A stretch of 64,000 nucleotides of DNA, from positions 716,225 through 780,224 of the forward strand of contig JADJOZ010000001.1 in NCBI GenBank assembly GCA_016713525.1, given 5' to 3'. Made by a program: the position numbers and the translations under genes. Below the pieces are notes generated by a model. That model was not told the DNA's origin and did not search any database. It worked only from the letters and a program-made list of their open reading frames with translations. Shown here piece after piece: positions 30,771-46,659 of the stretch. Each line of letters opens with the position of its first letter. The stretch's first letter is position 1. The DNA comes from Bacteroidota bacterium (GTDB lineage: Bacteria > Bacteroidota > Bacteroidia > AKYH767-A > OLB10).

Positions 30771-30779
30771 TTTGCCCCC

Positions 30780-30869
30780 GGAGAGTTGGCAGAGCGGTCG
30801 ATTGCGGCAGTCTTGAAAACTGTTGAGGTGTTAAAGCCTCCTGGGGTTCGAATCCCTAACTCTCCGCCA
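30780..30869 (+). tRNA. tRNA-Ser (anticodon UGA), type II with long variable arm, CCA encoded
   Basis: Cloverleaf was built by hand. Acceptor GGAGAGT/ACTCTCC, D-arm GCA..TGC, anticodon stem GCAGT/ACTGT with loop CTTGAAA (anticodon TGA), variable arm GAGG...CCTC, T-arm TGGGG-TTCGAAT-CCCTA, discriminator G, then CCA. Confidence 0.85.
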
Positions 30870-30880
30870 ACAAAAAATCA

Positions 30881-30910
30881 ATGCCCCTTTCGGGGCATTT
30901 TTTATTTTAT
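30881..30910 (+). terminator. intrinsic terminator after tRNA-Ser (ATGCCCC-TTTC-GGGGCAT then a T-tract)
   Basis: Perfect 7-bp GC-rich stem followed by TTTTTTATTTT. Confidence 0.7.
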
Positions 30911-30953
30911 GCCGTTGCCAAGCTTGCTTGAGCAAAAGGCAGAAATAAAAAAT

Positions 30954-31326
30954 GACGGCACAAAGTGCCGCATTGGTTTTTTGTTGAAGCCACCCCCAAA
31001 AGGGATCAGCGAAGCTAATCCCTTTTGGGAAAAAGCCCTGATCAAACTTGTTTGAATCGGGGCTTTTGCTTTTTCCAGCAACCAACCTTGGTTGGTTGCT
31101 TTTTGTTGAAGCCACCCCCCAACGGGATCAGCGAAGCTAATCCCTAACACCAATAAGAACCTGCAGCAACCAACCTTGGTTGGTTGGTTTTTGTTGATGC
31201 CACCCCCTAACGGGATCAGCGCAGCTAATCCCTAGCAAAAATCGCAGACCAATATCAACCAACTTTAGTTGGTTGTTTTTTGTTGAAGCCACCCCCAAAA
31301 CGGGATCAGCGAAGCAACAATTCGCA
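30954..31326 (+). repeat. tandem modular repeat array (4 units, ~88-bp period). Each unit is a palindromic hairpin with a T-tract followed by a conserved 45-nt motif TTTTTGTTGAAGCCACCCCC(N)AACGGGATCAGCGAAGCTAATCCC.
   Basis: Motif copies at 30975-31022, 31100-31144, 31188-31232 and 31277-31326. The preceding hairpins are CGGCACAAAGTGCCG, GCAACCAACCTTGGTTGGTTGC (twice) and CAACCAACTTTAGTTGGTTG. An extra terminator-like hairpin sits at 31032-31074. Confidence 0.75.
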
Positions 31327-31430
31327 TGCCTGTGTCGATGCCAGGTAAAACCTTTTGAACTGGATAAGGAAGAAAATTTCACGTTGGATACGGGAATTAA
31401 GGTTTGTTCCCATATAATTTTATTACATTT
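31318..31430 (+). promoter_or_regulatory. conserved ~110-nt upstream element, copy A (core CTTTTGAACTGG...GAAAATTTCAC..GGATACG.GAATT at 31352-31400)
   Basis: A near-identical element recurs at 33228-33340. Each lies ~200 nt upstream of the next start codon (31552 and 33458). Confidence 0.5.
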
Positions 31431-31551
31431 GAATAAAAAAATTCCAAAATTGATGGGTTTGCTGATACTAAACTTTAAATCGTTTTAGGTCCCTATAGTT
31501 ACCATTTTAACGCTCCGGACAAGTAGGAGAAAAAATTCAAAATAAGCTGCA

Positions 31552-33205
31552 ATGAAAAACATTCACAAAAATCTGCTTCTTGTTATTCTGACTTTTAATT
31601 TTTGCTTTTATTCTCTTTCCTATTCTCAAAATATTCCTACAATTCAGTGGCAAAATACTATAGGGGGAAGTAGTTTTGATTTCCTTTATTCTGCAGAGCA
31701 AACAACAGATGGTGGCTATATTCTTGTAGGATATTCTTATTCAAACATTTCAGGAGATAAAACTGAAAACTTTATAGGTAGTTATGGCAGAAGTGATTAT
31801 TGGATTGTAAAAACTGATTCATCAGGTAACATTCTGTGGCAGAACACTATCGGAGGAGAATATGAAGAAGCACTTACTTCCATAAAACAAACAACTGATG
31901 GGGGATATATTTTGGGTGGATTTTCACAGTCAAACGCTTCAGGCGATAAAACAGAAAATAATTATGATACTTTATGCGCAACTTTCGATTACTGGATTGT
32001 AAAAACAGATTCACTTGGAAATTTAATTTTGGGACATCACCATTGGTGGAAGTGATGAAGATAGACTTTTGGCTATTGAGCAAACAGCAGATAATGGTTT
32101 TATTCTAGGTGGATTTTCCAGATCAAATATTTCAGGTGTTAAAGTTGAAAATAATATTGGTGCATCTCCAACAACTGATTACTGGATTGTAAAAACTGAT
32201 TCGCTTGGCAATATTGAATGGCAAAACACAATTGGAGGTAGTTTATATGACTATCTTTATTCTATTAAGGAAACTCAGGACGGAGGTTACATTCTTGGAG
32301 GAATGTCTTGTTCAAACATTTCAGGTGATAAAACGGAAACCTGCCTATGGTATGGAGACTATTGGATTATAAAAACAGATTCACTGGGAACAATTCAATG
32401 GCAGAATACAATTGGAGGAAATGGCAATGACGCACTTTTTTCATTAGTACAAACCTCAGATGGAGGATATTTACTAGGTGGAGAATCTAATTCGAATATT
32501 TCGTGGGATAAGACTGAAAACAGCATGGGTGACTTTGATTATTGGATTGTAAAAACGAACTCAGTTGGAAACATTCAGTGGCAAAACACTATCGGAGGAA
32601 GTGAAGGTGATTTTCTCGAATCATTACAGCAAACCACTGACGGTGGCTATATACTTGGCGGCTGGTCCCTGTCAAACATTTCAGGCGATAAAACACAAAA
32701 TAATTGTGATAGTACTTTGGGCTATCCAGATTTCTGGATTGTGAAAACCGATGCTGCTGGAAGCATACAGTGGCAAAATACTATCGGGGGCAGTAAAAAC
32801 GATAAGCTTCATTCCATTGAACAAACAATTGACGGCGGATACATTCTTGGTGGCTATTCAGAATCAGACATTTCAGGAAATAAAACAGAAAATTGCATTG
32901 GCTATTCAGATTACTGGATTGTAAAACTTACTCCAGAAACAATCACTTCAAGTGTGCAAACGCCCTATCAGCAATTACCAATTTTAATTTCTCCCAATCC
33001 TTTTACAGATAAATTAAATGTTACTGTCAATAATAGTGAACTTTCAGAAATTATTCTTTATGACATGACAGCAAGAAAAATAATGCAAATGAATTTTACA
33101 AATTCCATTACTCTAAATACAGAACAGCTTGCAAAGGGTTTGTATATTTATGAATTGCGAATTAAAAATGGTATGTCCCCAAAAGGGAAAATTGTGAAAG
33201 ATTGA
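31552..33205 (+). CDS. 7-bladed beta-propeller-like repeat protein with T9SS type-A CTD, frameshift at T-run 32017-32020
   Basis: Track ORFs 31552-32055 and 32069-33205 form one gene. Removing one T from TTTT at 32017-32020 gives a continuous ...DSLGNLIWDITIGGSDEDRLLAIEQTADNGFILGG. There are seven ~60-aa repeats (QWQNTIGGS..D...S..QT.DGGYILGG.S.SNISGDKTEN....DYWIVKTDS.GNI), a signal peptide, and a C-terminal ISPNPFTDKLNVTV...GLYIYELRI type-A CTD. Confidence 0.65.
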
Positions 33206-33227
33206 GACGGTTATAAGCAAGTTTGCA

Positions 33228-33340
33228 CGGGCTTCGTTTCAGTATCCCTGCCAGACATAATCTTTTGAACTGGTCAGGATGAAAATTTCACACCGGATAC
33301 GTGAATTCAGCCTTATTTCCTGAAGGTATTTAAATTTGAA
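33228..33340 (+). promoter_or_regulatory. conserved ~110-nt upstream element, copy B
   Basis: CTGCCAGACATAATCTTTTGAACTGGTCAGGATGAAAATTTCACACCGGATACGTGAATTCAG...AAATTTGAAT aligns with copy A. Confidence 0.5.
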
Positions 33341-33457
33341 TCAAATTTTTTCTTAATTTGCAATAGCGTATAATTTTAGCGACTGACAAGTTGATTATAG
33401 ATAAAATGCATTTTTAAGCAGTTAACATGTATGATGTCATTTGTTTAAATTTATATT

Positions 33458-34018
33458 ATGAAACAATTTTACTGGATTTTTATTTTGCTTGCTGTAATAT
33501 CAAACCCACTTAATGCGCAGCAGGCAGAAGCTGATTTCAAAAAGTCCTTGTTTGTAAATTCAAAAGATGAAAATGTCTATTCGCTTTCTATTGGAGGTGG
33601 CATTGGTGCAGGTAGTCAAGGTGCTACTGGCGGATTGATTGTAGATTTAGACGTTTATCATATTTTAATTGGATATAAGTTGATAAAGCATGGAATTTTG
33701 TTGCCAAAAGACCACAAACAAGCAACTGAAAATTCTTTTTATTTTGGCTATCAATATCGAACTAAAAAAATAATGAGTTCAATTGGTGCAGGAATAGGCA
33801 TCTTAAAATATAAATGTACAAGTGGAATTAATGGCAACTGTTATGACATTGATGAAAACACGAGCCAATGCATACCATTGAAATTAGAGTTTGACTATTT
33901 ATTTTCACCATACATTGGAATTGGAATATCTGCAAACAATACATTTACTGATAATTCCCCCTTGTTTTCCGCTATGTTTCACCTGAAATTTGGTATATTC
34001 TGGAGTCAGGAATATTAA
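33458..34018 (+). CDS. putative outer-membrane beta-barrel protein (hypothetical)
   Basis: Signal peptide (PLNAQQ) and alternating amphipathic beta-strand pattern. It ends with aromatic residues (FWSQEY). No named domain recognised. Confidence 0.35.
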   Translation: MKQFYWIFILLAVISNPLNAQQAEADFKKSLFVNSKDENVYSLSIGGGIGAGSQGATGGLIVDLDVYHILIGYKLIKHGILLPKDHKQATENSFYFGYQYRTKKIMSSIGAGIGILKYKCTSGINGNCYDIDENTSQCIPLKLEFDYLFSPYIGIGISANNTFTDNSPLFSAMFHLKFGIFWSQEY

Positions 34019-34208
34019 GCAATAGTAAGCCTGTAACAACTCTCTCTGCCACCGGATTTATATGTTTAAAGGGTGTGTATCATAAATGGCCTGACAATAT
34101 TTTGATGAGGATTAATGGGTAATGTGGCACATACAAAATTTTTTGTCACCTTTGCTATAGCCATGAAAACTGGCGCCAATAACTTGACATAGCATTAAGC
34201 TCACAACC

Positions 34209-34685
34209 ATGAAGAAACCAATCTTAGTAATTTTAGTCCTTGCAGCAACTTTTTCGCTGGGCTTCGCATTTAAATCGCTTACTACAACCTATACAAACCC
34301 TAACAACATGAAAAGAGTAACCGGAATCGGCGGAGTTTTCTTTAAATGTAAAAATCCGAAGGAAACCACAGAATGGTATAAAAAACACCTCGGATTAGAT
34401 ACCAACCCATACGGTGCAACCTTTGAATGGTACGAAGGACCCGACAGTACCACCAAAGCCCAAACCCAATGGACACCCTTTCCGGAGACCACCAACTATT
34501 TCGGGAACTCGAACCAGAATTTCATGATAAACTACCGCGTTGAAAATCTCGAGGCATTGGTAGAAGAACTAAAAAAAGAAGGCGTAACCATAGTAGACAA
34601 AATTGAATCGTACGACTATGGCAAGTTTGTGCACATTCTCGATGGCGAAGGCAACAAAGTGCAGCTTTGGGAAGCGATAGATTAG
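34209..34685 (+). CDS. VOC (glyoxalase/bleomycin-resistance) family protein, secreted
   Basis: Signal peptide, then GIGGVFFKCKNPKETTEWYKKHLGL and KFVHILDGEGNKVQLWE blocks typical of the VOC superfamily. Confidence 0.55.
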   Translation: MKKPILVILVLAATFSLGFAFKSLTTTYTNPNNMKRVTGIGGVFFKCKNPKETTEWYKKHLGLDTNPYGATFEWYEGPDSTTKAQTQWTPFPETTNYFGNSNQNFMINYRVENLEALVEELKKEGVTIVDKIESYDYGKFVHILDGEGNKVQLWEAID

Positions 34686-34693
34686 CACGAACC

Positions 34694-35119
34694 ATGCAGT
34701 ATTTACTTTATCTGTTAGTCCTTTTTTACTTTTTGTATACACTTTCGTATGCTTTGAAATTCAATAGGGCCAACATTTACTATGCAGGTAAACAAAAGCT
34801 TGTCCATAATCTCATGATTTGGCTGGTTCCTTTTCTGTGGATTCTGCTCTTAAAAACCATTGACAGACCAATTGGAAGAAATTCGTTTTCCCAAGAACCA
34901 GAAACCGGTCCTGATGGAAGTGATGGAGGCGGGCCACCGGATTCTATTCATTTTTTCATGGATCCGGAAGTGCATCGGATGGAGGTTACTCCGGCTCCGA
35001 CTCAGGTGGCTACGATAACCATGGATATGACTCCGGTGGAAGTGGAAATTCAGGTGGTAGTGGAGATGGTGGGGATTAGGGGGGGCATTGCAAAGGCTAA
35101 ACATTATACAATAATATAG
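34694..35119 (+). CDS. hypothetical membrane protein (C-terminus possibly frameshifted)
   Basis: Two TM helices. The alternative frame after the T6 run near 34957-34962 gives a Gly/Ser/Asp/Tyr-rich low-complexity tail (GSGSASDGGYSGSDSGGYDNHGYDSGGSGNSGGSGDGGD). Confidence 0.3.
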   Translation: MQYLLYLLVLFYFLYTLSYALKFNRANIYYAGKQKLVHNLMIWLVPFLWILLLKTIDRPIGRNSFSQEPETGPDGSDGGGPPDSIHFFMDPEVHRMEVTPAPTQVATITMDMTPVEVEIQVVVEMVGIRGGIAKAKHYTII

Positions 35120-35198
35120 GACAACCTTTGAAATTGAGAGTGTTTTGCCGCAAAATACTTAAAAGTTTAGAATCATTTTATATAGTATTTTAAATGAG

Positions 35199-36572
35199 TT
35201 ATTTTTTATTTACTTTAAATTTCCCAGCAACTATTCTTAAATATTTCACTACGATAAAAATTGGAAATAACAGACAAAAAAACAATGATAAAAACCCTAT
35301 TTGCAATTGTTTTTGAATATCTAACATAAACAAGAACACAGAAACGATTAAAGTCAATATAATGTAGTTAATGAAACTATAAATTGGTTCTTTAAGTGTT
35401 GGGTCGAAAATAATCCAATTGAAAGGGTTTTTCTCATAGCCCATCAATTCTGGATTGAAAAAATATAGATATAAAAGGAATAGACAAAAAATTAGGATAT
35501 TGATTAAAATTCCGTTAGCAAGTTGAACTATGCTCAGCTTGTAATACAGGCTATTTCTCGAATCATTATTGACTTGCAATTTAATGATTTTTGAATTTGT
35601 TTTTGTAATTGGATCATGAAGACGGACGTCATAATTTCCAGATCGAAATTTCCTCTTTAAAAGAATTTTTAACTGGCTATTTTCTAGCTGAAACTCAAAA
35701 TCTTTGTTTATTTTATTTGGAACTAAAGAATTAATAAATTGAACTTCAATTTTGTCTTGATCTAAAATATTGTAGGTTCTAAAATCAAAAATTAAAGGGA
35801 TTTCCTGGTCAAATTTACTGCCATTGATGTTCAGAGAGTCATTGCCATCAAATTGATGATTTAATAAGGCTATAGTAGGTGCTTCAGTTTCAACAAGAGC
35901 GGAAATCAATAGAGAGAATGGTTTGGAGTTAGAATTTTCGAAAAAGTCAGGGATCAAAATTACTGAACCAGAATCAATTAATCCAACTATAAAATATATG
36001 CTTTCTTGTTTACAAGATGAAACTAACCTGAAATTGTGAGATTCAAAGTTGCTTTGGTTTAGAACTTGAGGAAAGTTATTTGTAGAATTTAAAAGTTGAT
36101 ATTCAGCATGTGTTAGCGATGACGTTACTTTAATATCAACAGTATTAAATTCGATAAATATTTTACTTTGCAGAGGAGAACTGGATGTCATACCGGATGC
36201 CCTTTTTGGAGTATGCAGTGGAACATAGTTAACTAGTAACAGTAAATGTGAATCTATATAAAGGAGTTTACCATTGATTAGATTTCGGGTTTGAATTTGA
36301 GCATTGACATCAAAAATGCGTTCTTGAAATTGGGAATTCATTTCCGTATAAGTAAATTCATGAACCCTGATATTTGTTGTACTTGAAGATTCATATTTAA
36401 CTAAAAGGCAAATTTTATTTTCTGAAAAAGTAGCATCTAAAATTTCAGGTTTAAGTTGAGAGTCAATTCGTTTGTGAGAGATATTTTTGTAAATCATGTC
36501 GTAATTATTAGTGTTAGCATCAGATTTCGTATAAATCAAAATTCCCAAAATAATTAAAATTAGCTGTCTCAT
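35199..36572 (-). CDS. hypothetical protein: signal peptide, large extracytoplasmic domain, C-terminal TM helices
   Basis: 457-aa AT-rich ORF with N-terminal MRQLILIILGILIYT and C-terminal hydrophobic helices. No recognisable domain. Confidence 0.4.
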   Translation of the reverse strand: MRQLILIILGILIYTKSDANTNNYDMIYKNISHKRIDSQLKPEILDATFSENKICLLVKYESSSTTNIRVHEFTYTEMNSQFQERIFDVNAQIQTRNLINGKLLYIDSHLLLLVNYVPLHTPKRASGMTSSSPLQSKIFIEFNTVDIKVTSSLTHAEYQLLNSTNNFPQVLNQSNFESHNFRLVSSCKQESIYFIVGLIDSGSVILIPDFFENSNSKPFSLLISALVETEAPTIALLNHQFDGNDSLNINGSKFDQEIPLIFDFRTYNILDQDKIEVQFINSLVPNKINKDFEFQLENSQLKILLKRKFRSGNYDVRLHDPITKTNSKIIKLQVNNDSRNSLYYKLSIVQLANGILINILIFCLFLLYLYFFNPELMGYEKNPFNWIIFDPTLKEPIYSFINYIILTLIVSVFLFMLDIQKQLQIGFLSLFFCLLFPIFIVVKYLRIVAGKFKVNKK

Positions 36573-37140
36573 AGTGATAGATTTGTTTGATTTGGAAAAT
36601 GTATATCAGGGTTTTTATTGAAAATTTACACTTTGATTTTTTTCGGATTGATTTATTTGGAAGAAATATTAATTTTATTATTGGTGTATTTAAGCTGCTT
36701 AGTAATTGCTTTCAACAAATTTCACAATTATTGGACTGGATTTCCATCTTAAATAATTTCAAATTTATAAGAATATTAGAGATTTCCAAAATTGCGTTCT
36801 GTAAAACTTGTTTTTATCGAAAACTAGTAATGATTTAGTGCATGATGAGTTATCGATTGAGTTGTAATGATCATTGAAATAGCTTGAAAACAGACACATG
36901 TTGTCAGGTGTTGTTTACATAAGTATTTGAATATTGCAATTTATTGAATATCAGAATAATGTAATACTTACTTAAGGTTTTGGTTGGCTTTTCAGGAAAA
37001 TAGGTAAGGTTTTCTTGCTAACGAAGCAGTTTATTTAATTTCACACTTTTTCGTGGACCATCCTAACTATTTTTTTTAAGGGGAAGAAGTGGGTTCGGGG
37101 AAAAAATGTACTTTTGGTACTAAACTTAAAACTAAAATTT

Positions 37141-37494
37141 ATGAAAAGATCTACTTTGATTGCAATTGCAATTTTTATCGCCTGTAATGTGAATGGGCAA
37201 ACGAATACAGATTCTACTCAGGTCAGAATTGAAATGGTTCAATTGAATTTAAACAAGTATTATAACCAGACAAGGACAGGTACTGGGATATTCGCTTTTG
37301 GAGCTTTACTTGGGACTGCTACACTTATTGGATTGGATCGACAGCAAGGTGAATATAGGTTACGTAATAGTTTGTACGGAGTTGCTGGAGCTGCTGCTTT
37401 GACCGGGTTGCTTATAAATATGGAAGCAATTCGTTTTGTTCGCGAGGCTTCAGAGATTTCCATTGGACCAGGGGGTGCAAAAATTAAATTTTAA
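37141..37494 (+). CDS. hypothetical secreted or membrane protein
   Basis: Signal peptide (MKRSTLIAIAIFIACNVNGQ) and a Gly/Ala-rich TM-like segment. First gene of a three-gene co-oriented cluster. Confidence 0.35.
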   Translation: MKRSTLIAIAIFIACNVNGQTNTDSTQVRIEMVQLNLNKYYNQTRTGTGIFAFGALLGTATLIGLDRQQGEYRLRNSLYGVAGAAALTGLLINMEAIRFVREASEISIGPGGAKIKF

Positions 37495-37509
37495 CACATT
37501 TTAATTAGT

Positions 37510-37854
37510 ATGACTGAAGAAAATGAAAAGTTGCAAACGAAGCATAAGCAACAATTTTGGTTCAAAGTAGGATTGACTGTTATAATTCTATTGTGGCTCT
37601 CTAATTTTTTGATTTTGTTTTGTCATAATCCTGGAACTATTGGTGATTCTTTTGGTGTTGTTAATTCACTCTTCAGTGGATTAGCATTTGGAGGAATAAT
37701 TTATACAATCATACTTCAAAGGGATGAACTACAACTTCAAAGAGACGAACTTAGTTTAACTCGATTAGAATTGAAGAGATCTGCTAATGCACAGGAAGAT
37801 TCTCAAAAGGCTCTTGAAAGGCAAGCAGCTAATTTGAAAAAAGTGCAGAATTGA
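37510..37854 (+). CDS. hypothetical membrane-anchored coiled-coil protein
   Basis: Two TM helices, then a coiled coil with an internal LQRDELQLQRDEL duplication. It starts 16 nt after the previous gene. Confidence 0.35.
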   Translation: MTEENEKLQTKHKQQFWFKVGLTVIILLWLSNFLILFCHNPGTIGDSFGVVNSLFSGLAFGGIIYTIILQRDELQLQRDELSLTRLELKRSANAQEDSQKALERQAANLKKVQN

Positions 37855-38063
37855 GTGCTCTAACAACTCTTATTGAATATTACCAAGGTTTGAATACTAA
37901 AACTTATGACATTATAGCTAAAGAAAGATACAATGATGTGATCACCATTTATATTGCAAGAATTTCTCAAATACTTGAAGATAAACAAAGCTAGATAAAA
38001 AATTCATATAGTTGCATTCTGATACTGATAGTTTTTACAATAATCTGATAAATTTGATTTTTT

Positions 38064-38909
38064 ATGCTTAATGAAATAAGAGATGGCTGGTCCCATTTTA
38101 TTGATAGGTTAAAAAGTCCATTTGGTGGAACATTTATATTTATCTGGATAATCACCCATTGGGAATTCATTTATTATCTAATTTTTGTCAGTTCTGATGT
38201 GACAGCTGAAGAACGAATTATAAACTTTAAATTTTTTTTTCAAGGAAGTCTTGGTAAAAGATTTATCTTGGATGTATTGCAACCTGCATTATTAACATTT
38301 CTCGCAATTGCAACATATCATAGCTTTTCCATTGTAGCGGGAGTAATCACCGGTGCTTTTAAGCGTTATTTGGAGCCCTGGATTTCAGGTGAATTGGGGA
38401 CTGGACCAACCGTTTTGAAATCTGAACTGGATTTGGAATCTCAAAGATTAATGAAACTCCAATTAGAATTAACAAAATGTCAAGATTTGAGAAATGATGA
38501 ATCTAGGCGGAATTTAGGTTCTGAACAAGAATTGAAAAGTAGTATAAATGTTTATTTGGGCCAGCTGAATAATGCAAATGCCAAAATTAATGATATTGAA
38601 AACAGACTGAAAATTTTAAGCGAAGGAGACAATAAACAATTATCAGATTTACATTATAAGCAGAGATTGAAAGAATTAAGATGCTTGGATTTTAGAAATG
38701 ACAGGCATCCAGGGTTAAGGGATATAATGAAGGATAAAAAATATAATTTTTATTTCGATGATGTAACCAAATCATTTAATCGAGAATCATTCAACTTGGA
38801 TGACAGTTCCTATCTTGTAGATGGAGTTAAAAAGTACAATATTTCAACAGTGATGATTAATCATATATACAAAATCAGGTGTATTTTGAAAAAGGGATAT
38901 GAAAAATAA
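38064..38909 (+). CDS. hypothetical membrane protein with C-terminal coiled-coil
   Basis: 281 aa with N-terminal TM helices followed by a long coiled-coil and charged region. No recognisable domain. Confidence 0.4.
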   Translation: MLNEIRDGWSHFIDRLKSPFGGTFIFIWIITHWEFIYYLIFVSSDVTAEERIINFKFFFQGSLGKRFILDVLQPALLTFLAIATYHSFSIVAGVITGAFKRYLEPWISGELGTGPTVLKSELDLESQRLMKLQLELTKCQDLRNDESRRNLGSEQELKSSINVYLGQLNNANAKINDIENRLKILSEGDNKQLSDLHYKQRLKELRCLDFRNDRHPGLRDIMKDKKYNFYFDDVTKSFNRESFNLDDSSYLVDGVKKYNISTVMINHIYKIRCILKKGYEK

Positions 38910-39089
38910 TTTGGTCTATATTAATTTAATAAATTATTCAATGCTAAATAATGGTACTTATTTTGGGTTTGAATTGAATTATGCAACCCAAAAAATGTAT
39001 AAAATTCTATATTCACCAGTTGATATTTCAGAGTTCCAAAATTATTTCTCTGGAACTGAGGATAATTAAGTAATTTGTCGCCTGTGCAT

Positions 39090-39707
39090 CTATCCAGCCC
39101 CATTCTGAGCCACATACTTTTCCGTACACACTTTAACATACTCCAAGCCTCCTCGCTTATCATCCCCACCGTGAAGGGAATTCTCACGGGGTTTAAAGGG
39201 GTTCAGAATATAATTCTTGTACCTGCAGTAGTCGCCTAATTTCTTTTTAAACTGCCGGGAATCACAGTACATCCTTTGTTTTGGGTAAATATCATAAAAG
39301 TGATCCGTGAGCTCCTTTCGGCTTATTTCCACGTTAAGATTGTTAGGATCTGAAAAGTAGGTATCTGCCCAATCCATAAATGACTCTCCGATATCCTGCC
39401 GGAGCTTTCTGGCTTGAATATTCTCAAATGGGGGAGACACTATCCCGAATTTAAAATAAAGCTTCAGACAGGTCGCCATGAGGTTGTAAAACAGATTCCA
39501 CTGGTCGAACTCCCATTCATCAAAGAAAAGCACTCCGAAATCGTCCACCGGTCGCAAATGTGGACCGTAATAGTCTGAAAAGACCATAAACGCCTGGCGA
39601 TCGCTGTGGCTGTATCCGGAGCCGGACAGGGCATGATTGGTTGTAAGGAAGATCTTGGGACTGTTGGTTAGAGTGAGTCGCTTGTCATATTTGCCTTCAA
39701 TTTGCAT
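39090..39707 (-). pseudogene. C-terminal fragment of a P4-type phage/plasmid primase-helicase (D5-like), remnant
   Basis: KIFLTTNHALSGSGYSHSDRQAFMVF...FFDEWEF resembles the region after the ATPase core of P4-family primases. The N-terminal primase and Walker A parts are absent. No flanking integrase. Confidence 0.3.
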
Positions 39708-39806
39708 TCTGCCGGTGATAAGAGGGAATAGGCAATGGAATTGAGGATGGAACCTTTGGAAAGGGGTGGGTTACTTAGGTTCATCAGGTGAAGTGGAAGT
39801 TAAAAT

Positions 39807-40750
39807 TATGTAGATCTTTCAACAACATAATTAACGAATTTTTCAATTAATATTTCAACTAATTTAGGAGTTGAGATGTAATCGTCGAATTTGTTCGTGG
39901 TGCTCCAACCTAGCTCTCCTGTGATGTATTTGTGAAAATAATAAGATTGATTACCACCCTGTAGATTTGTTGAGTTATATTCAAAATTGCATTGTAATCT
40001 TGAATCTGATAATGTATTACTATATTTTCTAATAAATTCAATACAAAGAAGTAAAGGATCAATTCCAATGTGAAAATGAACTTTGGGAACATCTCCTCCA
40101 ATCTGGAGTGATCTTTTGAATAATTTCGATTAGGTTGATTGTCAGGCCATATTTTGTTATATTCCTCAAAAATTTTATCATATAACAGTTGTAATTCTGA
40201 ATTCAAATCTTTAATTGATTCCTCATGCCTGAAATAATTTGACAGGCCGTCGATCCAGTTTTTCTGTGGTTTAAGTTATCAATTATTTCTTTCGGAGTTA
40301 GTTTTAATGAACTCCCATGTAACTCAATCAATTTTTGTTGTATAAATCCGACTGTTAAATCTATCGTAGACAAGTCAAAATTAGCGTATATGTAATTTCT
40401 TCCAATATAATCAATTTGGCTGTTGTCTAAATTCAGAATTATAAAACTATATGGAGTACTAAATTTTGAGTTAGCAATTGTCTAGACATTATTGCTTCTT
40501 TTTCAATCAAGGTCCAGGATGAAATTCCATAATTTTCTCTATGCAAAATGATAACTAAACGACTTCTATGTTTATATATATTTTGTAGTACAGGAATTGC
40601 ATTTTTAAATGCTAATTCCTTTTTATCCGTACTGTAAAGAAATATTTTGTCCGTATTTCCCAGTCTTTTCTGTAATTCTTCGGCTATCTTTTTGTCTTGA
40701 TCCAACAAAGAAAAGGCTATTTCGTAATCAAAATCTAAAGAATCGTTCAT
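39807..40750 (-). pseudogene. TIR/TIR-like domain protein disrupted by at least 3 frameshifts
   Basis: Track ORF 40439-40750 has a TIR-like N-terminus (DFDYEIAFSLLDQDKKIAEELQKRL...SRLVIILHRENYGISSWTLIEKEAI). Translation continues in other frames as TIANSKFSTPYSFIILNLDNSQIDYIGRNYIYANFDLSTIDLTVGFIQQKLIELHGSSLKLTPKEIIDNL, then NSELQLLYDKIFEEYNKIWPDNQPNRNYSKDHSRLEEM, then DVPKVHFHIGIDPLLLCIEFIRKYSNTLSDSRLQCNFEYNSTNLQGGNQSYYFHKYITGELGWSTTNKFDDYISTPKLVEILIEKFVNYVVERST, ending at 39807. Confidence 0.45.
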
Positions 40751-40769
40751 GACCTAAATATTTATATTT

Positions 40770-40982
40770 TTAAATTGGATCTAATCGTTCAAGCTCAAAT
40801 TCATTTGCATGTACAAAAGGCATGAATTCACCCTCAGCAATCTCAACAGGAATTAAAACAAAATCAAACCCTAGCAAAGGATAGATGTCATTTAAAAAAT
40901 GTTTTCTCGGTTTAATTTTATCTCCTTCAATGCTGTGTTTTATTCCTTTATACAGCACAATATCTCCTATTTTGTATTTCAA
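40770..40982 (-). CDS. hypothetical small protein immediately upstream of the TIR-like gene
   Basis: 70-aa ORF whose stop lies 20 nt before the TIR-like start. No recognisable domain. Confidence 0.3.
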   Translation of the reverse strand: MKYKIGDIVLYKGIKHSIEGDKIKPRKHFLNDIYPLLGFDFVLIPVEIAEGEFMPFVHANEFELERLDPI

Positions 40983-41378
40983 TTTTAGTAGAATTTTTAT
41001 GCAATATACGATTTTTAAAAGTAAAAAGGTATTTAGATAGTATCTTTTTGAAATCTAAATGCTGGAACTGAAGCTTACATTTGGCCTCGCTATCAAATAA
41101 TCTAAGTTGATTCATTTTGGTAAAATAGTATGTGTTTTAATAAATGCACAGTAATTTGCTCCACTTTATTTTTGGAACCATCATATTGGGAATTACTTTT
41201 CCGATTTGGAATTACAGGAATTTCATACCCTCACAACCAATCGAACTATTCATGTCCATATTTGTAAAAATTTATTTTATTTTTTTGAAATTTCAAATTA
41301 ACATTTCTGGTTGAATGAGATTTTCTGAATGGTGCGATTGAAACCTGGATATTAAAAATTATTAACTGATTCATAAAC

Positions 41379-42775
41379 TTAATTTTTAACAATAGCCTGA
41401 TTCGTAATTGACAATTTTTCAATTAAAGCCAATGTTTGTCTGTATTCAGCTGCCTCTGAAAGTTTTGTGAATTCTATTTCAGCATTTGTTGTTGTGAGAA
41501 TGAATTTTTCTAATTCATCCAATGTAATTTTGAAAAATTCTTTTCGATAATTAATTTTATTTAGTCTTTGGTTATCGAATTGTTTGTGAATTTCGTATTC
41601 CAATTGTGGTGCATTTTCAGAGTAAATTATTGCATGTACATCGAAATGGAACGGTACAGAGGCATCACCTAATTCCTTAACGCGCTCTTTAGGGTCAAGT
41701 CTACGGGTCATGCCAATTTTGTAAACATTTTCGCCAAATGCACCAATGTTAGAAACAACATATATGTGACCTACTTTTGTTTGCTGAGCCATTGATATTG
41801 CTCTGTCTTTGCGTTCGTGTGCCAATTGTAATTCGGCTTCTAATTGAGCAATTTTTTCCAGTAATTCATTCTTGTTATCAATAAGTCCGGATTCGAGTTG
41901 CTGTTTTGTTTTTTCAATTTCCTTTTCAAAGACTATTTCATCCTGTTCAGCAGATTTTTTTGCACGTTCTAACTCACGTAAAGCACGTTCTTCCTCCTTC
42001 ATCTGTTCTTTAAGACGTTTTTGCTCCTCTTTCTCTTCATATTTTTTTGGAGTTCATATTCATAGGTCAATGCTAATTCTTCAAGTTTGCATTCTAGGAA
42101 GGATTTGGTGACATAAATTTCATGACTTGAACCCAAGGTATTTACATTTTCATAAATCTTGACGATACGTTCTTTGGACTTTTCTATATTGTTCCATTTG
42201 ACTTTTGATATAATTGCTTCACATTCCCCATTAAATGCGAAGATCATAAGTTTTTCATACTGCTTCGTCATTTTTTTTCCTTCAGATTGACTACCACCTA
42301 CCACCCATTGCCTGTCACATTTTGCACCAGCACCTTGTTTAATTAGAAGTCTCTGCTTTTGATAATTTAATTCTAATTTTTCTGAATATTGTGAGCTTAC
42401 TTCAAAGTTAAATTGAGGTTGATATACGCCATAAGTTCCAAGTTCCAGTGTATCTTGAAACAATTCGATTTCCTTCCTCATTTTGGAAATATCTTCTGAA
42501 GTTGCATCAAATGTGCTTTTCTGACCTTCAAGTTGCAATTTTAAATCTTTGACCTTTTCTTCAAATGAATTTATTGATTCAGACATTTTTGCTAATGGTC
42601 CAAATTGAATTATGTGTTCTTTCAATTTGTCCACTTCCAAATAAGCAGAATCTTTTTCTAAATTTAAGCTGGTAATCTTTTTTCTCAAACTGCTTATTAT
42701 AATAAAAGCAACAATCGAAGTAAGGACAATTCCGATTCCTAAGCCGAACAAAGTATGTGTTTGATCATCCATCAT
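41379..42775 (-). CDS. DUF4041 plus T5orf172 (GIY-YIG-like) domain protein, frameshift in homopolymer at 42043-42049
   Basis: Track ORFs 41999-42775 (TM, coiled coil, DUF4041-like) and 41379-42002 (T5orf172-like: VGHIYVVSNIGAFGENVYKIGMTRRLDPKERVKELGD...) are one gene. Adding one A to the A7 run on the coding strand gives a continuous ...YELQKKYEEKEEQKRLKEQMKEEERALRELERAKK. Confidence 0.7.
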
Positions 42776-43105
42776 TATAGTAGTTTACAGGTATTTAATT
42801 CTCGGAAAGTATAAATTTAATATCTAACCAAACCAAGGGTTTTCCCTATTTTTTTCAAGGGTTTTCCCGCAATTTCCTTCTGTAAACTTCGGTTTTGTTG
42901 CATTTTGGGAATTATTATTAATGAACCATTTAGGACGTTTTCATTTTAATGGAGTTAGATTATGAAAGTTTAGTCGTAGTTATTTTGGCGATTTGTGGAG
43001 TTTGCAGTTAATTTATGTGTAATGTAGTAAACAATCTTATAATTGCCTTTTCCAGTAAGATCCATTACTTTTAGTTCAATTTCATTTCAATTTAATACCG
43101 TAATC

Positions 43106-43453
43106 ATGATTAATTTTAAAAGGTTACATACAGCAGTCAAGAAAGCTGGTCGTTCATGGGAAAATGTTGGGCCTGTAATTGGTTTAACCGGTAATGGAAT
43201 GCGATATTCCATCAAAAATAGATCACTTTCATTGGTTAAATATGAAAAGTTATGCAAGGAGTTGAAGGTGCATCCGGCATTTATATTCCTTGAAAGCGAT
43301 GATTTAAGTGCTATGTTTTATAAGAAACGGATAACTGAAGTAGATTTGGGTAGTAGCCAGATTGCGATTTTAAAGGCTGAAAATGAGATGTTGAAAGAGC
43401 AAAATCGCAAGCTTCAAACCAGATTGATCGAATTGATTGACATCAAAAAGTAA
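43106..43453 (+). CDS. small HTH DNA-binding regulator with C-terminal coiled coil
   Basis: MINFKRLHTAVKKAGRSWENVGPVIGLTGNGMRYSIKN resembles a Cro/C1-type HTH. The C-terminus is a leucine-zipper-like coiled coil. Divergent from the DUF4041 gene. Confidence 0.4.
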   Translation: MINFKRLHTAVKKAGRSWENVGPVIGLTGNGMRYSIKNRSLSLVKYEKLCKELKVHPAFIFLESDDLSAMFYKKRITEVDLGSSQIAILKAENEMLKEQNRKLQTRLIELIDIKK

Positions 43454-43604
43454 GTTCCGCAATCGAACCATTAATGAAATTACACATACTTTTTTTTTAT
43501 TTACATTAGCGTTTTGAACTTCGGTACAGGACAGGTTAATGATTGTTTAAAACCAGTTCTACGATCCTTAATTCCAAAATGGAGTCTTAAAAATTAATTA
43601 CCAA

Positions 43605-43955
43605 ATGATCTACAAATTCAAACTAACCACTTATAGAATTATAGGAGCAATTCTTGTTTTACTCGGGTTGATTGGATACCTGACTATAGCAGATGAATTC
43701 CGACACTATAATGAATTTCTTGGAGTGACCTGTGTACTGGTTTCCGGTCTGGTTTTGTTGCTTATTGACTTTAGATTTCATTTATTTCAAAAAGTTGAAC
43801 TCCAGTGGCTCTCTATTTGCCTGTTAGCATGTATACCCCTTGGAGGTGTTGTCCTTGATAATATGCCGATCGGTATGTGTATAGGATTTATTTCAGGAAT
43901 TTCAATTGCTATTATTTTGGGAAAGGTTAATGTGACCAAATCAAGTCAATCGTAA
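43605..43955 (+). CDS. hypothetical membrane protein (4 TM)
   Basis: 116-aa hydrophobic ORF. Confidence 0.35.
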   Translation: MIYKFKLTTYRIIGAILVLLGLIGYLTIADEFRHYNEFLGVTCVLVSGLVLLLIDFRFHLFQKVELQWLSICLLACIPLGGVVLDNMPIGMCIGFISGISIAIILGKVNVTKSSQS

Positions 43956-44111
43956 AAAAATAGCGTAATAATTGATCCCATGTCACCAATCCATCAAAAT
44001 TACCATGAACTTAGCTGATCGTTTTTTATTCAGTTGACCAAGTTTAATAAGCTCTTTATTATCCGTATTAAGGCATTTTTCTGTTGCAATTGATCTCAAA
44101 ATGATTATCTT

Positions 44112-44486
44112 GTGAAAAATAATGTATTTATGAAAGTCATGGTCCAAGCTGAATCTATAAGCAAATTGATGCAATATCAGCTCCACGAGCGGGTTTATCC
44201 TTCCTGGGTGTTTGATGAGAGTACCTTGCTAATAATTGATGCCAATCAGAGTGCACAAGATTTTTGCAATTATGAGGGTAATGAGTTAATTGGATTAAGT
44301 ATTACGGAGCTTTGGAAAGACGAGGACTTGAGTGATATCATTCATGATCTGGAGATGCATAGTTCGGAGCGATCATTTTATGGTAATCTGAAGCATACCA
44401 AAAAGAATGGTGACGAGGTGATAATGCGTGTACGTGCCACGCGACAACTTAATCCAAAAACACTTTGGGAAGTACATTTAGTATGA
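44112..44486 (+). CDS. small PAS-domain protein
   Basis: LLIIDANQSAQDFCNYEGNELIGLSITELW...HTKKNGDEVIMRVRATRQL is PAS-like. Confidence 0.4.
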   Translation: MKNNVFMKVMVQAESISKLMQYQLHERVYPSWVFDESTLLIIDANQSAQDFCNYEGNELIGLSITELWKDEDLSDIIHDLEMHSSERSFYGNLKHTKKNGDEVIMRVRATRQLNPKTLWEVHLV

Positions 44487-44755
44487 TTTGACTCTCTATT
44501 TTGCGTTAGGGATTGAGCCAGGTACCGTGTACCGGTGAAAGCCCGCCCCGAAGGGGAACGCCCAAAGAGCGAAAAGCATCCAAAGAATAGAAACTCTAAA
44601 ATTGACTAAAACCTGCTGTGCAGTGATTCCGATTTTTACTTTTTTGTACTACATTTGATGCAATATATCTTACCATGCATCTTGTGCTGATTGCGGTATT
44701 TGGTTGTTATTCAATGAGATATAAAGGTATCAAAGGTTTAGGCCGGATTTAAGGG

Positions 44756-46534: not shown

Positions 46535-46659
46535 AAAGGCAATTGATTATATTATTGAAGAGCAGTATGAAACAGATTCGGTTACGGTTGTGAAGAAAAG
46601 AGATGGAAAAATTGTTAGTTGGCGAAAAATGGCGAGTGGGGAATAATAAATTAAGTTAA

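What the first reader, a model, noticed from the sequence alone, without database searches (positions are those of the whole stretch)
30870..44700. AT-rich accessory island anchored at tRNA-Ser with mobile-element and defence-associated remnants but no integrase
Sequence composition turns visibly AT-rich from ~35 kb to ~44.5 kb. Almost every gene between the tRNA and ~47.5 kb is hypothetical or accessory: a propeller cargo, an OM barrel, VOC, membrane and coiled-coil proteins, a P4-type primase C-terminal fragment, a TIR-like gene, DUF4041-T5orf172, a small HTH regulator and a PAS protein. Its right-hand boundary is not defined; the genes between 44.7 and 47.5 kb are hypotheticals plus a DUF3667 protein. 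tRNA genes are classic integration sites. The primase remnant and the absence of any integrase or recombinase point to an old, decayed integrative element that has since turned into a defence and surface-protein island.
Basis: inference. Interest (0 to 1): 0.55.

Follow-up and report, generated by a model that had tools for sequence, protein, structure and literature searches.

The report
Strain-variable phage-defence hotspot, not tRNA-anchored
The AT-rich stretch is real, but it is an 8.9-kb hotspot where related strains of an uncultured Bacteroidota bacterium carry different gene cassettes, built around the leftover of a phage replication gene; it lies 3.8 kb from the tRNA, and this is an ordinary kind of bacterial defence island.

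Summary
tRNA-Ser(TGA) is at 30780-30869, GC falls to 0.32 over 34.7-43.55 kb against 0.40 elsewhere, and no ORF of 98 aa or more between 31.5 and 47.5 kb matches an integrase. The single-island reading does not hold. Related genomes show three nested layers. (1) Two conserved blocks, ending at the GWxTD gene (28.0 kb) and starting at the S8 peptidase (47.76 kb), bracket a tRNA-Ser-containing interval. It is 19.3 kb here and 2.8 kb in relative L124. (2) The tRNA, its repeat array, the DUF2715 barrel and the VOC gene are shared with a congener, so they are not recent cargo. (3) Only 34686-43552 varies between strains. Five versions exist, and all those that reach that point keep the 3' stub of a roughly 1010-aa phage primase-helicase gene. 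The SNIPE/PD-lambda-1 gene and the TIR-like gene are probably intact. Their frameshifts sit mostly in homopolymer runs, differ between two 98%-identical assemblies, and disappear when alleles are combined. No copy of the tRNA 3' end marks a distal boundary, but old tRNA-3'-like tandem units sit directly after the tRNA. This is a new member of a known kind, of low to moderate interest.

The parts
26533..28005 (-). GWxTD-domain gene, the last gene of the conserved left block (16.5-28.4 kb)
   Evidence: Pfam GWxTD_dom. Orthologues with conserved downstream synteny occur in about 15 relatives. Similarity to L124 ends at window 28400.
28503..29930 (+). 475-aa T9SS cargo gene lying between GWxTD and the tRNA; specific to this genus
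   Evidence: Por_Secre_tail. Present in L001 and L002 at 88% aa. In most relatives the tRNA sits 150-400 bp from GWxTD with no such gene.
30780..30869 (+). tRNA-Ser(TGA), intact
   Evidence: ARAGORN and Rfam RF00005, 52 bits. It is 100% identical in L124.
30880..31331 (+). tRNA terminator followed by four tandem 88-122-nt units. Each unit is a tRNA-3'-like motif (GTTGAAGCCACCCCC..GGGATCAGCGAAGCTAATCCC) plus a terminator-like hairpin; the fourth unit is cut short and has no terminator.
   Evidence: Repeat family D2. Terminator scan found 16 against 6.6 expected, clustered here. The units are present in L041, L121, L002 and L124, and a diverged form in L012. Collinear similarity to the tRNA 3' part has p = 0.003 for unit 2 and p = 0.0002 for the L015 intermediate. 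No Rfam family matches.
31552..33205 (+). One T9SS beta-propeller cargo gene (about 550 aa), read as two ORFs here because of a 1-nt indel near 32027. It is shared within the species, absent in congener L002, and flanked by 80-nt direct repeats at 31332-31411 and 33242-33320.
   Evidence: L041 has an intact 550-aa gene. Taking one allele from L121 restores 552 aa. L002 lacks 31332-33240.
33458..34018 (+). DUF2715 outer-membrane barrel gene; shared at genus level, so not strain-variable cargo
   Evidence: Pfam. 91% aa identity to L002 and 97% nt identity to L041.
34209..34685 (+). VOC/glyoxalase gene, the left anchor of the hotspot
   Evidence: Pfam. 97-98% aa identity in L002 and L041. L041 diverges immediately after its stop codon.
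34686..43552 (.). Strain-variable AT-rich hotspot (8.9 kb). The parts below lie inside it.
   Evidence: GC 0.323. Different content at this position in L041, L122, L289 and L002. Junctions are aligned. The same block occurs in L121 with about 4-fold fewer substitutions than the flanks.
34667..35119 (+). 150-aa membrane / Gly-rich ORF at the left edge, overlapping the VOC stop; present in L002 and L121, absent in L041
35199..36572 (-). 457-aa protein of unknown function with a signal peptide and a C-terminal multi-TM region; a near-orphan ('cassette A')
   Evidence: No Pfam, NCBIfam, PHROG or PADLOC hit. Only 2 clusters match among 1.84 billion representatives. An 88.7%-nt copy is present in L289.
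37047..37126 (+). Conserved 80-nt element ending in TACTTTTG, which fits the Bacteroidetes -7 box TAnnTTTG. It is the left border of cassette slot B.
   Evidence: Shared with L041 (89-90%) and L289 and followed by different genes in each. Single copy per genome. Its reading as a promoter is inference.
37114..38909 (+). Cassette B of this strain: three small membrane / coiled-coil proteins (126, 114 and 281 aa), function unknown
   Evidence: Only weak PHROG N-terminal hits, to families of unknown function, and no PADLOC hit. Replaced by 370 aa plus DUF5677 in L041, by 294 aa in L289 and by 349 aa in L122.
39090..39740 (-). 3' remnant (last ~22%) of a roughly 1010-aa phage primase-helicase gene. 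The zinc ribbon, Toprim domain and Walker A/B motifs are missing.
   Evidence: 49% identity to residues 780-1000 of L129's 1013-aa protein, which carries Zn_ribbon_DnaG and DUF3854. Homology starts just after Walker B, with nothing upstream. 284 relatives occur in IMG/VR contigs. Shorter stubs of the same 3' end are in L041, L122 and L289.
39800..40750 (-). TIR-like gene of about 315 aa, read here as ORFs of 103 and 98 aa because of 1-nt indels, mostly in homopolymer runs
   Evidence: PF01582 at 24.7 bits on the 103-aa ORF. The allele-repaired ORF is 316 aa. A full-length homologue, P0132, is 50% identical over 97% of the query, including across the repaired junction. P0132 lies next to a type I R-M system.
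41379..42775 (-). SNIPE / PD-Lambda-1 homologue (N-terminal TM helix, DUF4041, GIY-YIG/T5orf172), split in this assembly at an A7 run near 42040-42048
   Evidence: PADLOC PD-Lambda-1 at 521 bits, covering profile positions 54-478 of 491 after repair. Pfam hits. The frameshift is visible in the sequence. L121 reads through this site.
43043..43453 (+). L002 keeps only its last 49 nt.
   Evidence: No significant profile hit. It carries 12 substitutions against L121 and so lies outside the low-divergence block.
43553..47680 (+). Accessory segment shared within the species: a 116-aa membrane protein, PAS, 367-aa and 188-aa hypotheticals, and DUF3667. It is the right anchor of the hotspot.
   Evidence: Collinear with L122 at 93-97% nt, with two indels. 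Absent from L123, L124 and the available part of L002.
47759..49306 (+). S8 peptidase, the first gene of the conserved right block (S8, M4, DinB, Crp, ABC)
   Evidence: Orthologues at 73-77% aa with conserved downstream synteny occur in L123-L126. Similarity to L124 starts at window 47681.

Best explanation
The finding covers a nested variable interval, not one island. Two conserved gene blocks bracket a tRNA-Ser(TGA)-containing interval whose content differs between genera. The blocks end at the GWxTD gene (about 28.4 kb) and begin at the S8 peptidase (about 47.68 kb).

Inside that interval only 34686-43552 varies between strains. This AT-rich segment behaves as a defence and accessory-gene hotspot. 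It is a scaffold of short conserved pieces: the VOC gene end, an 80-nt promoter-like element, the 3' stub of a phage primase-helicase gene, a 74-nt piece at 41128-41201, and the upstream region of the 116-aa gene. Between these pieces different gene cassettes sit in different strains.

In this strain the cargo is:
- a near-orphan 457-aa membrane protein;
- a trio of small membrane / coiled-coil proteins;
- a TIR-like gene of about 315 aa;
- a SNIPE/PD-lambda-1 membrane-anchored GIY-YIG nuclease, which in E. coli cuts phage DNA during injection.

Inferred history: a phage of the family carrying this primase-helicase once lay here and was deleted down to a stub. Cassettes have since been gained, lost and swapped by homologous recombination through the conserved scaffold pieces and flanks, not by site-specific integration at the tRNA.

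Shown here: the layers, the boundaries, the alternative cargos, the truncation, and the identity of the SNIPE homologue. Inferred: the recombination mechanism, the prophage origin, and a defence role for the unknown cassettes.
For: Layers:
- The left block is conserved in about 15 relatives and the tRNA-Ser/GWxTD linkage in 8.
- The right block is conserved in L123-L126. The interval is 2.8 kb in L124/L125, with unrelated cargo and inverted orientation.
- L002 (85% nt) shares 30014-31315 and 33240-35089 but nothing in 35.1-43.4 kb except 49 nt.
- L041 (97% nt) shares 30001-34685, then carries other AT-rich cargo.
- L122 (93-97%) rejoins the window at about 43553.
- L289 shares 35094-37124, then has a different gene.

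Scaffold:
- The 80-nt element precedes different cassettes.
- Primase stubs of about 650 nt (window), 300 nt (L041), and 110-150 nt (L122, L289) share the same 3' end.

Recent sharing:
- Window against L121 has 32 substitutions in 8.3 kb of the block and 139 in 8.2 kb of flanks (Fisher p = 1.6e-17).

Cargo:
- PD-Lambda-1 at 521 bits, nearly end to end. Its mechanism is taken from bioRxiv 10.1101/2025.11.03.685801.
- The TIR-like family member P0132 sits in an R-M / integrase neighbourhood.
- L041's slot holds a DUF5677 protein and L122's island a TIR_2 remnant.

Phage origin of the stub. In intact phage contigs the region downstream of this gene is often variable: 88 of 330 closely related pairs share under half of it.

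Composition.
Against: - Only one cargo gene matches a validated defence family. The trio, the 457-aa protein and the alternative cargos (370, 349 and 294 aa) have no assignable function, so 'defence hotspot' rests on one and a half genes plus context.
- All comparison genomes are MAGs or metagenome contigs. Three of them break inside or next to the hotspot, so no complete second version is available and no truly empty site was found.
- The low divergence of the block between the window and L121 could come from consensus assemblies of mixed strains rather than from recent transfer.
- The allele-mixing repair chooses among 2^k combinations to maximise ORF length. It is independently validated only for the propeller (L041), for SNIPE (profile coverage), and for most, but not all, of the TIR-like protein (P0132 aligns poorly over residues 222-260).
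- Old tRNA-3'-like units next to the tRNA mean that site-specific integration at this tRNA in the past cannot be excluded.
Confidence: 0.72

Rival explanations
1. One reading: one old integrative element inserted at the 3' end of tRNA-Ser, spanning 30.87 kb to about 44.7-47.5 kb. It later lost its integrase and decayed into a defence and surface-protein island.
For: - tRNA-Ser sits at one end of the family-level variable interval, and the cargo downstream of it differs between genera.
- A phage replication-gene remnant is present.
- Degenerate tRNA-3'-like units follow the tRNA. L013 and L015 carry clearer partial tRNA-Ser copies at the same locus, as serial integrations would leave.
- 18 of 41 E. 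coli defence hotspots are tRNA loci (PMC10121019).
Against: - The tRNA-proximal genes are conserved in the congener and the conspecific, while the distal block varies.
- The segments have three different phylogenetic depths and different compositions (VOC GC3 0.48, primase stub 0.53, cargo 0.23-0.29).
- There is no tRNA-3' repeat at any distal boundary.
- The tRNA-like units are shared with L124, so they predate the present cargo.
Confidence: 0.1
2. The 34.56-43.06 kb block is itself a still-mobile element. It could be a satellite or a mobilisable island moved in trans, or carry an unrecognised recombinase, and it recently spread between strains.
For: - The block is nearly identical (0.3-0.4% substitutions) in two genomes whose flanks differ by about 1.7%.
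- It has a foreign composition.
- Several of its proteins have no known function.
Against: - No recombinase, relaxase or terminal repeats were found.
- The edges of the low-divergence block (inside VOC, and just upstream of the 43043 ORF) do not coincide with the edges of presence/absence seen against L041, L002 and L122. That pattern fits homologous crossovers better than site-specific ends.
- Parts of the block occur independently in other strains: cassette A alone in L289, and the stub alone in L122.
Confidence: 0.1
3. Assembly or binning artefact: the AT-rich block is a mis-joined foreign contig or a strain chimera, not a real part of this chromosome.
For: - The assemblies carry many homopolymer indels (77 in 16.5 kb).
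- Three related contigs end in or next to the block (L041, L121, L122).
Against: - L121 independently spans both junctions collinearly, from 29013 to 45531.
- L041 confirms the left junction context, L122 the right one, and L289 an internal one. All have AT-rich cargo at the same place.
Confidence: 0.04

Closest known systems
Chromosomal defence-island hotspots flanked by core genes (E. coli integration hotspots, Hochhauser et al. 2023, PMC10121019; 'core defence hotspots' of Pseudomonas aeruginosa, from my own knowledge)
   Same: - A fixed chromosomal position between conserved genes.
- Different cargo in closely related strains.
- Deviant, AT-rich composition.
- At least one validated defence family, with uncharacterised neighbours.
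- A tRNA gene nearby.
   Different: - No recognisable intact mobile element carries the cargo, whereas in E. coli almost all cargo rides on identifiable MGEs.
- The hotspot is 3.8 kb from the tRNA, behind genes conserved across the genus.
- No empty state was found.
- Exchange appears modular, slot by slot.
Variable defence-gene slots inside P2/P4-type prophages and satellites (Rousset et al. 2022, from my own knowledge; P4-like satellites at tRNA hotspots are mentioned in PMC10121019)
   Same: A short cassette slot bounded by conserved element sequences holds alternative, mostly single-gene or few-gene systems. Here the bounds are the promoter-like element and the 3' end of the primase-helicase gene, and four alternative cargos were seen.
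   Different: - The surrounding element is gone apart from a 650-nt stub.
- The replication protein is a DnaG-zinc-ribbon/Toprim plus P-loop type of Bacteroidota phages, not P4 alpha.
- There are no integrase, capsid or psu/sid-like genes.
SNIPE / PD-lambda-1 (Vassallo et al. 2022, PMC9519451; Saxton et al. 2025, bioRxiv 10.1101/2025.11.03.685801)
   Same: - The gene at 41379-42775 has the three defining parts in order: an N-terminal TM helix (LFGLGIGIVLTSIVAFIIISSL), DUF4041, and a C-terminal GIY-YIG/T5orf172 domain.
- It matches the PADLOC model over positions 54-478 of 491.
   Different: - It is from a Bacteroidota host.
- The ORF is interrupted in this assembly at an A7 run.
- Activity, phage range and partners (ManYZ in E. 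coli) are untested.
tRNA-integrated genomic islands and prophages with attL/attR copies of the tRNA 3' end (Williams 2002, from my own knowledge)
   Same: - A tRNA gene next to variable DNA.
- Degenerate tRNA-3'-like units downstream of the tRNA, and partial tRNA-Ser copies at the same locus in relatives L013 and L015.
   Different: - No integrase and no distal repeat.
- The tRNA-like units are tandem, 88-122 nt apart with no cargo between them.
- They carry an enlarged loop conserved between genera, and are about 90% identical to those of L124 where flanking coding DNA is about 70%. That looks like selection, not scars.

Membership tests
tRNA-integrated genomic island / prophage | Element abuts the 3' end of the tRNA gene | tested here: not met
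   The strain-variable block starts at 34686, 3.8 kb from the tRNA. The DNA in between is conserved in L002 and L041.
tRNA-integrated genomic island / prophage | Direct repeat of the tRNA 3' end at the distal boundary (attR) | tested here: not met
   No match to the 27-nt 3' end with up to 3 mismatches anywhere else in the window. blastn-short gave only chance-level hits. Only degenerate tandem units lie next to the tRNA.
tRNA-integrated genomic island / prophage | Integrase or recombinase gene | tested here: not met
   No such Pfam, NCBIfam, PHROG or PADLOC hit in any ORF of 98 aa or more between 31.5 and 47.5 kb.
tRNA-integrated genomic island / prophage | Present or absent as a unit in related genomes | tested here: not met
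   There are three layers with different distributions.
Chromosomal defence / accessory hotspot | Same position between conserved flanking genes in related genomes | tested here: met
   The VOC gene lies on the left (L041, L002, L121) and the 116-aa/PAS genes on the right (L122, L121).
Chromosomal defence / accessory hotspot | Different cargo in closely related strains | tested here: met
   Five versions were seen: window/L121, L041, L122, L289 and L002.
Chromosomal defence / accessory hotspot | Cargo enriched in known defence systems | tested here: inconclusive
   One PADLOC system (PD-Lambda-1). A weak TIR-like gene whose homologue sits by an R-M system. DUF5677 and a TIR_2 remnant in other versions. 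The remaining genes are unknown.
Chromosomal defence / accessory hotspot | An empty state exists in some genomes | tested here: inconclusive
   No contig joins VOC directly to the 116-aa gene. The smallest family-level interval is 2.8 kb, in L124. The genome and metagenome scans were capped at one each.
SNIPE / PD-lambda-1 | N-terminal transmembrane anchor | tested here: met
   A hydrophobic stretch at residues 9-30 is read directly from the translation. No TM predictor was run.
SNIPE / PD-lambda-1 | Central DUF4041 domain | tested here: met
   PF13250, E = 7.6e-19.
SNIPE / PD-lambda-1 | C-terminal GIY-YIG (T5orf172) nuclease domain | tested here: met
   PF10544 and PF13455, E = 1e-18 to 1e-20. 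The GHIYVV...YKIGMT motifs are visible in the translation.
SNIPE / PD-lambda-1 | Single uninterrupted ORF | tested here: inconclusive
   The gene is split at an A7 run in this assembly. L121 reads through that site but is broken elsewhere. The combined alleles give 467 aa, which matches the model at 521 bits.
SNIPE / PD-lambda-1 | Protects against phage by cutting injected DNA | not testable with these tools
   This needs plaque assays.
Phage primase-helicase (DnaG zinc ribbon + Toprim + P-loop; phrog_28855) | Zinc ribbon, Toprim domain and Walker A/B motifs | tested here: not met
   Homology begins after Walker B at window 39740, and there is no upstream remnant. Only the C-terminal ~22% is present.
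TIR-domain defence protein (e.g. Thoeris ThsB) | TIR fold | tested here: inconclusive
   PF01582 scores 24.7 bits on the 103-aa ORF, 18.4 bits (below the cut-off) on the repaired protein, and nothing on homologue P0132. The AF2 model has pLDDT 38. The PDB profile search gave E = 1 to plant TIR 3jrn.
TIR-domain defence protein (e.g. Thoeris ThsB) | Partner effector gene (ThsA-type) adjacent | tested here: not met
   No PADLOC hit in the neighbouring ORFs.

The most novel reading that the evidence does not exclude
Two readings remain open.

(a) Slot B, between the conserved promoter-like element (37047-37126) and the primase stub (39090), is a dedicated exchange slot. Its four alternative, unannotated cargos are the 126/114/281-aa trio, the 370-aa plus DUF5677 pair, a 294-aa protein and a 349-aa protein. 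These, together with the near-orphan 457-aa protein and the 315-aa TIR-like family, could include one or more undescribed anti-phage systems of Bacteroidota.

(b) The tandem tRNA-Ser-3'-derived units after the tRNA could be a functional, undescribed structured-RNA family rather than integration scars. They are conserved at about 90% where neighbouring coding DNA is about 70%. They also show one compensatory stem change in a distant relative.
Probability: 0.25. Interest if true: 0.55.

Novelty: new member of a known kind. Interest (0 to 1): 0.3.

Why it matters
Taken alone, this is a routine defence and accessory hotspot in an uncultured activated-sludge Bacteroidota lineage. Its practical value is threefold.
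- It gives a mapped cassette slot with four alternative unknown cargos and conserved borders. That is the kind of place where new defence genes are found, in a phylum where few have been tested.
- It is a clear case where apparent pseudogenes ('remnants') are mostly homopolymer indels of long-read MAGs. This matters for anyone inferring decay from such assemblies.
- It shows that 'AT-rich region near a tRNA' should not be read as one tRNA-integrated island without comparing relatives.

Tried and rejected
- Exact-protein look-ups for five window proteins found nothing. The source genome is not in that collection.
- A search for the tRNA 3' end elsewhere in the window found nothing.
- Rfam found only the tRNA. 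No family matches the tandem units.
- DNA searches of 35.1-43.0 kb against phage and plasmid records matched only the PD-lambda-1 nuclease domain, at about 70% nt.
- Viral-contig scans for the 281-aa and 457-aa proteins found no relatives.
- The idea that the 80-nt element is a repeated recombination site (attC-like) was rejected. It is single copy.
- AlphaFold2 on the TIR-like family (4-row alignment) gave pLDDT 38.5, so no fold search was run.
- PDB sequence searches for the primase-helicase homologue, the TIR-like profile and the alternative cargos gave nothing significant.
- A link between the primase-carrying phages and tRNA-Ser was checked and not found. Their contigs carry other tRNAs.
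- I considered an inversion model for the S8/GWxTD orientation differences between L025/L003/L004, L124 and the window. I left it unresolved: the interval is inverted in L124 relative to the window, and S8 is inverted in L025.

Full report

ARAGORN and Rfam place an intact tRNA-Ser(TGA) at 30780-30869 on the + strand. The window averages about 0.40 GC. Over 34686-43552 the GC is 0.323, against 0.401 +/- 0.027 for 1-kb windows outside it. Tetranucleotide distance from the rest of the window peaks over 34-44 kb. One GC-normal islet interrupts the block at 39.0-39.8 kb (GC 0.44, GC3 0.53).

Profile searches confirm most of the gene list:
- a Por_Secre_tail propeller (31552-33205);
- a DUF2715 barrel (33458-34018);
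- a glyoxalase/VOC protein (34209-34685);
- a TIR hit just above threshold (40439-40750; 24.7 bits against a 21.3 cut-off);
- T5orf172 (41379-42002) and DUF4041 (41999-42775);
- PAS (44112-44486) and DUF3667 (46660-47547).

No ORF of 98 aa or more between 31.5 and 47.5 kb matches an integrase, recombinase or transposase. The small 'HTH' ORF at 43043-43453 matches no profile.

**2. What related genomes show**

The organism is an uncultured Bacteroidia lineage known only from MAGs. A scan with the GWxTD protein (26533-28005) returned 40 loci. The block 16.5-28 kb is collinear in about 15 of them. tRNA-Ser(TGA) lies next to the GWxTD gene in eight.

Congener L002 (JAEUTI010000087.1; 90% aa, about 85% nt) compares with the window as follows:
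- It matches 17906-29928, then 30014-31315 (tRNA and repeats), then 33240-35089 (DUF2715, VOC, 150-aa ORF).
- It lacks the propeller gene (31332-33240). In the window that gene is flanked by 80-nt direct repeats.
- It has unrelated genes in place of 35.1-43.4 kb, apart from the last 49 nt of the 43043 ORF.

Three conspecific-level sequences were found.
- L121 (GCA_016703655.1) is collinear with 29013-45531 at 98.3%.
- L041 is 97% identical over 30001-34685, including an intact 550-aa propeller. It diverges immediately after the VOC stop codon into different AT-rich cargo. That cargo still contains an 80-nt match to 37047-37126 and a copy of the primase-fragment 3' end.
- L122 (GCA_016716985.1) is collinear with 43559-59132 at 93-97%. 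To the left of that it has other cargo, including a TIR_2 remnant and a 107-nt stub of the same primase 3' end.

A fifth version, L289, shares 35094-37124 at 88.7%. It then carries a single different 294-aa gene, followed by the primase stub.

On the far side, S8-peptidase orthologues (75-77% aa) in L123-L126 show that S8, M4, DinB, Crp and ABC form a conserved right block. In L124/L125 the whole GWxTD-to-S8 interval is 2.8 kb. It holds tRNA-Ser, two to three of the tandem units and two unrelated genes, and it is inverted relative to the window.

So there are three layers:
- a family-level variable interval (about 28.4-47.68 kb);
- genus- or species-level accessory genes within it;
- a strain-level hotspot at 34686-43552, which coincides with the AT-rich block.

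**3. Anatomy of the hotspot**

From left to right the hotspot contains:
1. A 150-aa ORF overlapping the VOC stop, absent in L041.
2. A 457-aa membrane protein with only two related clusters among 1.84 billion representatives.
3. A conserved 80-nt element ending in TACTTTTG. This fits the Bacteroidetes -7 consensus TAnnTTTG (own knowledge; its function is inferred).
4. A cassette slot. It holds three small membrane / coiled-coil proteins here, 370 aa plus DUF5677 in L041, 294 aa in L289 and 349 aa in L122.
5. The primase-helicase stub.
6. A TIR-like gene.
7. A SNIPE/PD-lambda-1 gene.
8. The 43043 ORF.

The stub aligns at 49% identity to residues 780-1000 of 1013-1018-aa proteins encoded on IMG/VR Bacteroidota phage contigs. 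Those proteins carry a DnaG-type zinc ribbon and a Toprim-like DUF3854 domain. Shorter homologues show Walker A (GRSGKS) and Walker B (VFIDD) motifs just upstream of where the window's homology starts, and nothing lies upstream in the window.

The stub is about 650 nt here, about 300 nt in L041, and 110-150 nt in L122 and L289, always with the same 3' end. I read this as progressive erosion of one ancestral gene.

Among 330 pairs of phage contigs with at least 90%-identical primase 3' ends, 88 share less than half of the 2.5 kb downstream. This is weak support that the position is a natural accessory-gene slot in these phages.

**4. 'Remnants' are mostly assembly errors**

The window and L121 differ by 77 indels, nearly all 1-2 nt and mostly in homopolymer runs. 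Accession style and 'tig' contig names suggest long-read MAGs; this is inference. Choosing, at each indel, the allele from one or the other assembly gives these results:
- **Propeller:** restored to 552 aa with one swap. This agrees with L041's intact gene.
- **SNIPE:** restored to 467 aa with one swap at the A7 run seen. The repaired protein matches the PADLOC PD-Lambda-1 model at 521 bits over positions 54-478 of 491.
- **TIR-like gene:** restored to 316 aa. A 346-aa protein from another Bacteroidota metagenome aligns over 97% of it at 50% identity, including across the repaired junction (SRQLLTQKFSTPYSFIILN...). That homologue lies beside a type I R-M system, DUF2971, RadC and an integrase.

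The repair picks the best of 2^k combinations. Residues 222-260 of the TIR-like protein still align poorly, so some uncertainty remains. The primase stub is the only clear relic.

**5. How it most likely works**

SNIPE in E. coli is a constitutively membrane-anchored GIY-YIG nuclease that cuts phage DNA during injection. It requires its TM helix, DUF4041 and nuclease domains (bioRxiv 10.1101/2025.11.03.685801; first reported as a DUF4041 protein in PMC9519451). The window's homologue has all three parts. The other cargos have no assignable function.

For turnover, the best-supported mechanism is homologous recombination through conserved flanks and scaffold pieces. The evidence is:
- The borders of presence/absence differ between strain pairs (34685 against L041, about 35095 against L002, about 43553 against L122, 37124 against L289).
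- No repeats or recombinase are present.
- Between the window and L121 the block has 32 substitutions in 8.3 kb, against 139 in 8.2 kb of flanks (p = 1.6e-17). The switch points lie inside the VOC gene (about 34560) and just before the 43043 ORF (about 43059).

The last observation could also arise from consensus assemblies of mixed strains.

**6. The tRNA question**

No copy of the tRNA 3' end occurs elsewhere in the window. Directly after the tRNA terminator lie four tandem units of 88-122 nt. The first three combine a motif (GTTGAAGCCACCCCC-N3-4-GGGATCAGCGAAGCTAATCCC) with a terminator-like hairpin, and the fourth is cut short.

The motif is collinear with the tRNA's own variable arm, T arm and acceptor start. 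Shuffle tests gave p = 0.003 for unit 2. An intermediate form in L015 that runs to ...CTCCGC-CA gave p = 0.0002. L013 and L015 carry clearer partial tRNA-Ser copies at the same locus. This is what past integrations at this tRNA would leave.

However, three points argue for constraint or tandem duplication rather than independent scars:
- The units are tandem, with no cargo between them.
- They are shared with L124 at about 90% identity, where flanking coding DNA is about 70%.
- In distant L012 the inner stem changes from AGC/GCT to TGC/GCA, a compensatory change.

The units are older than the present cargo and do not delimit it.

**7. Comparison with known systems, and verdict**

The locus fits the known class of chromosomal defence/accessory hotspots between conserved genes (PMC10121019). 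It also resembles cassette slots of P2/P4-type elements (own knowledge). It differs in having no carrier element left and in showing modular, slot-wise exchange.

It fails all four tests for a tRNA-integrated island: abutting the tRNA, an att repeat, an integrase, and unit-wise presence. The region is accessory, deviant in composition, has no integrase and holds a real mobile-element relic. But it is not one island, it is not anchored at the tRNA, and its defence genes are probably alive. Novelty: a new member of a known kind. Interest: about 0.3.

Noticed in passing
window 30880-31331 (also L002 6478-6941, L041 971-1313, L124 8430-8649, L012 downstream of its tRNA): Four tandem units derived from the 3' part of tRNA-Ser follow the tRNA, and the first three each have their own terminator-like hairpin. 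They are about 90% identical between genera whose coding flanks are about 70% identical. A distant relative shows one compensatory stem change. No Rfam family matches. They could be an undescribed tRNA-derived sRNA family or old integration scars.
   Followed up: partly
window 29013-45531 against L121: There are 77 small indels, nearly all 1-2 nt and mostly in homopolymer runs, between two 98.3%-identical assemblies. ORF breaks in this window cannot be taken as pseudogenes. The propeller, SNIPE and TIR-like genes are all affected.
   Followed up: yes
window 49573-54244: The M4 peptidase / PKD / T9SS gene is read as two overlapping ORFs (972 and 637 aa). It is a single 1614-aa gene in L122, which also has 174 extra nt at the break (window 52433/52435). 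A frameshift or a collapsed PKD repeat in this assembly is likely.
   Followed up: partly
window 31332-31411 and 33242-33320: 80-nt direct repeats (78% identical) flank the propeller gene, which is missing in congener L002. L002 has a single copy of the repeat. This suggests gain or loss of the gene by recombination between duplicated upstream regions.
   Followed up: partly
window 26533-49306 compared with L124/L125, L123 and L025/L003/L004: The interval between the GWxTD and S8 genes has been inverted at least once in the family. The tRNA is next to S8 and points the other way in L123-L125. In L025/L003/L004 S8 lies directly beside GWxTD on the same strand. No inverted repeats that would explain this were found.
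   Followed up: partly
L140, L152, L153, L165, L167 (IMG/VR phage contigs carrying the full-length primase-helicase): These phage contigs encode a tRNA with anticodon TCA, which ARAGORN calls tRNA-SeC. It is most likely a TGA suppressor tRNA, which hints at stop-codon recoding in these Bacteroidota phages.
   Followed up: no
L015, about 200-470 nt downstream of its tRNA-Ser: A small GIY-YIG-like ORF lies between the tRNA-Ser and a partial tRNA-Ser copy. The assignment was read by eye and not profile-tested. It may be a homing-type or mobile insertion at the same tRNA locus.
   Followed up: no
L122 4092-5549 and 8106-8929, against window 44003-44082 and 46648-46688: There are two further indels between conspecifics in the 'right anchor' segment: a 1.46-kb piece with 93- and 80-aa ORFs, and a DUF218 gene. 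The 43.55-47.7 kb segment is therefore also somewhat fluid.
   Followed up: partly
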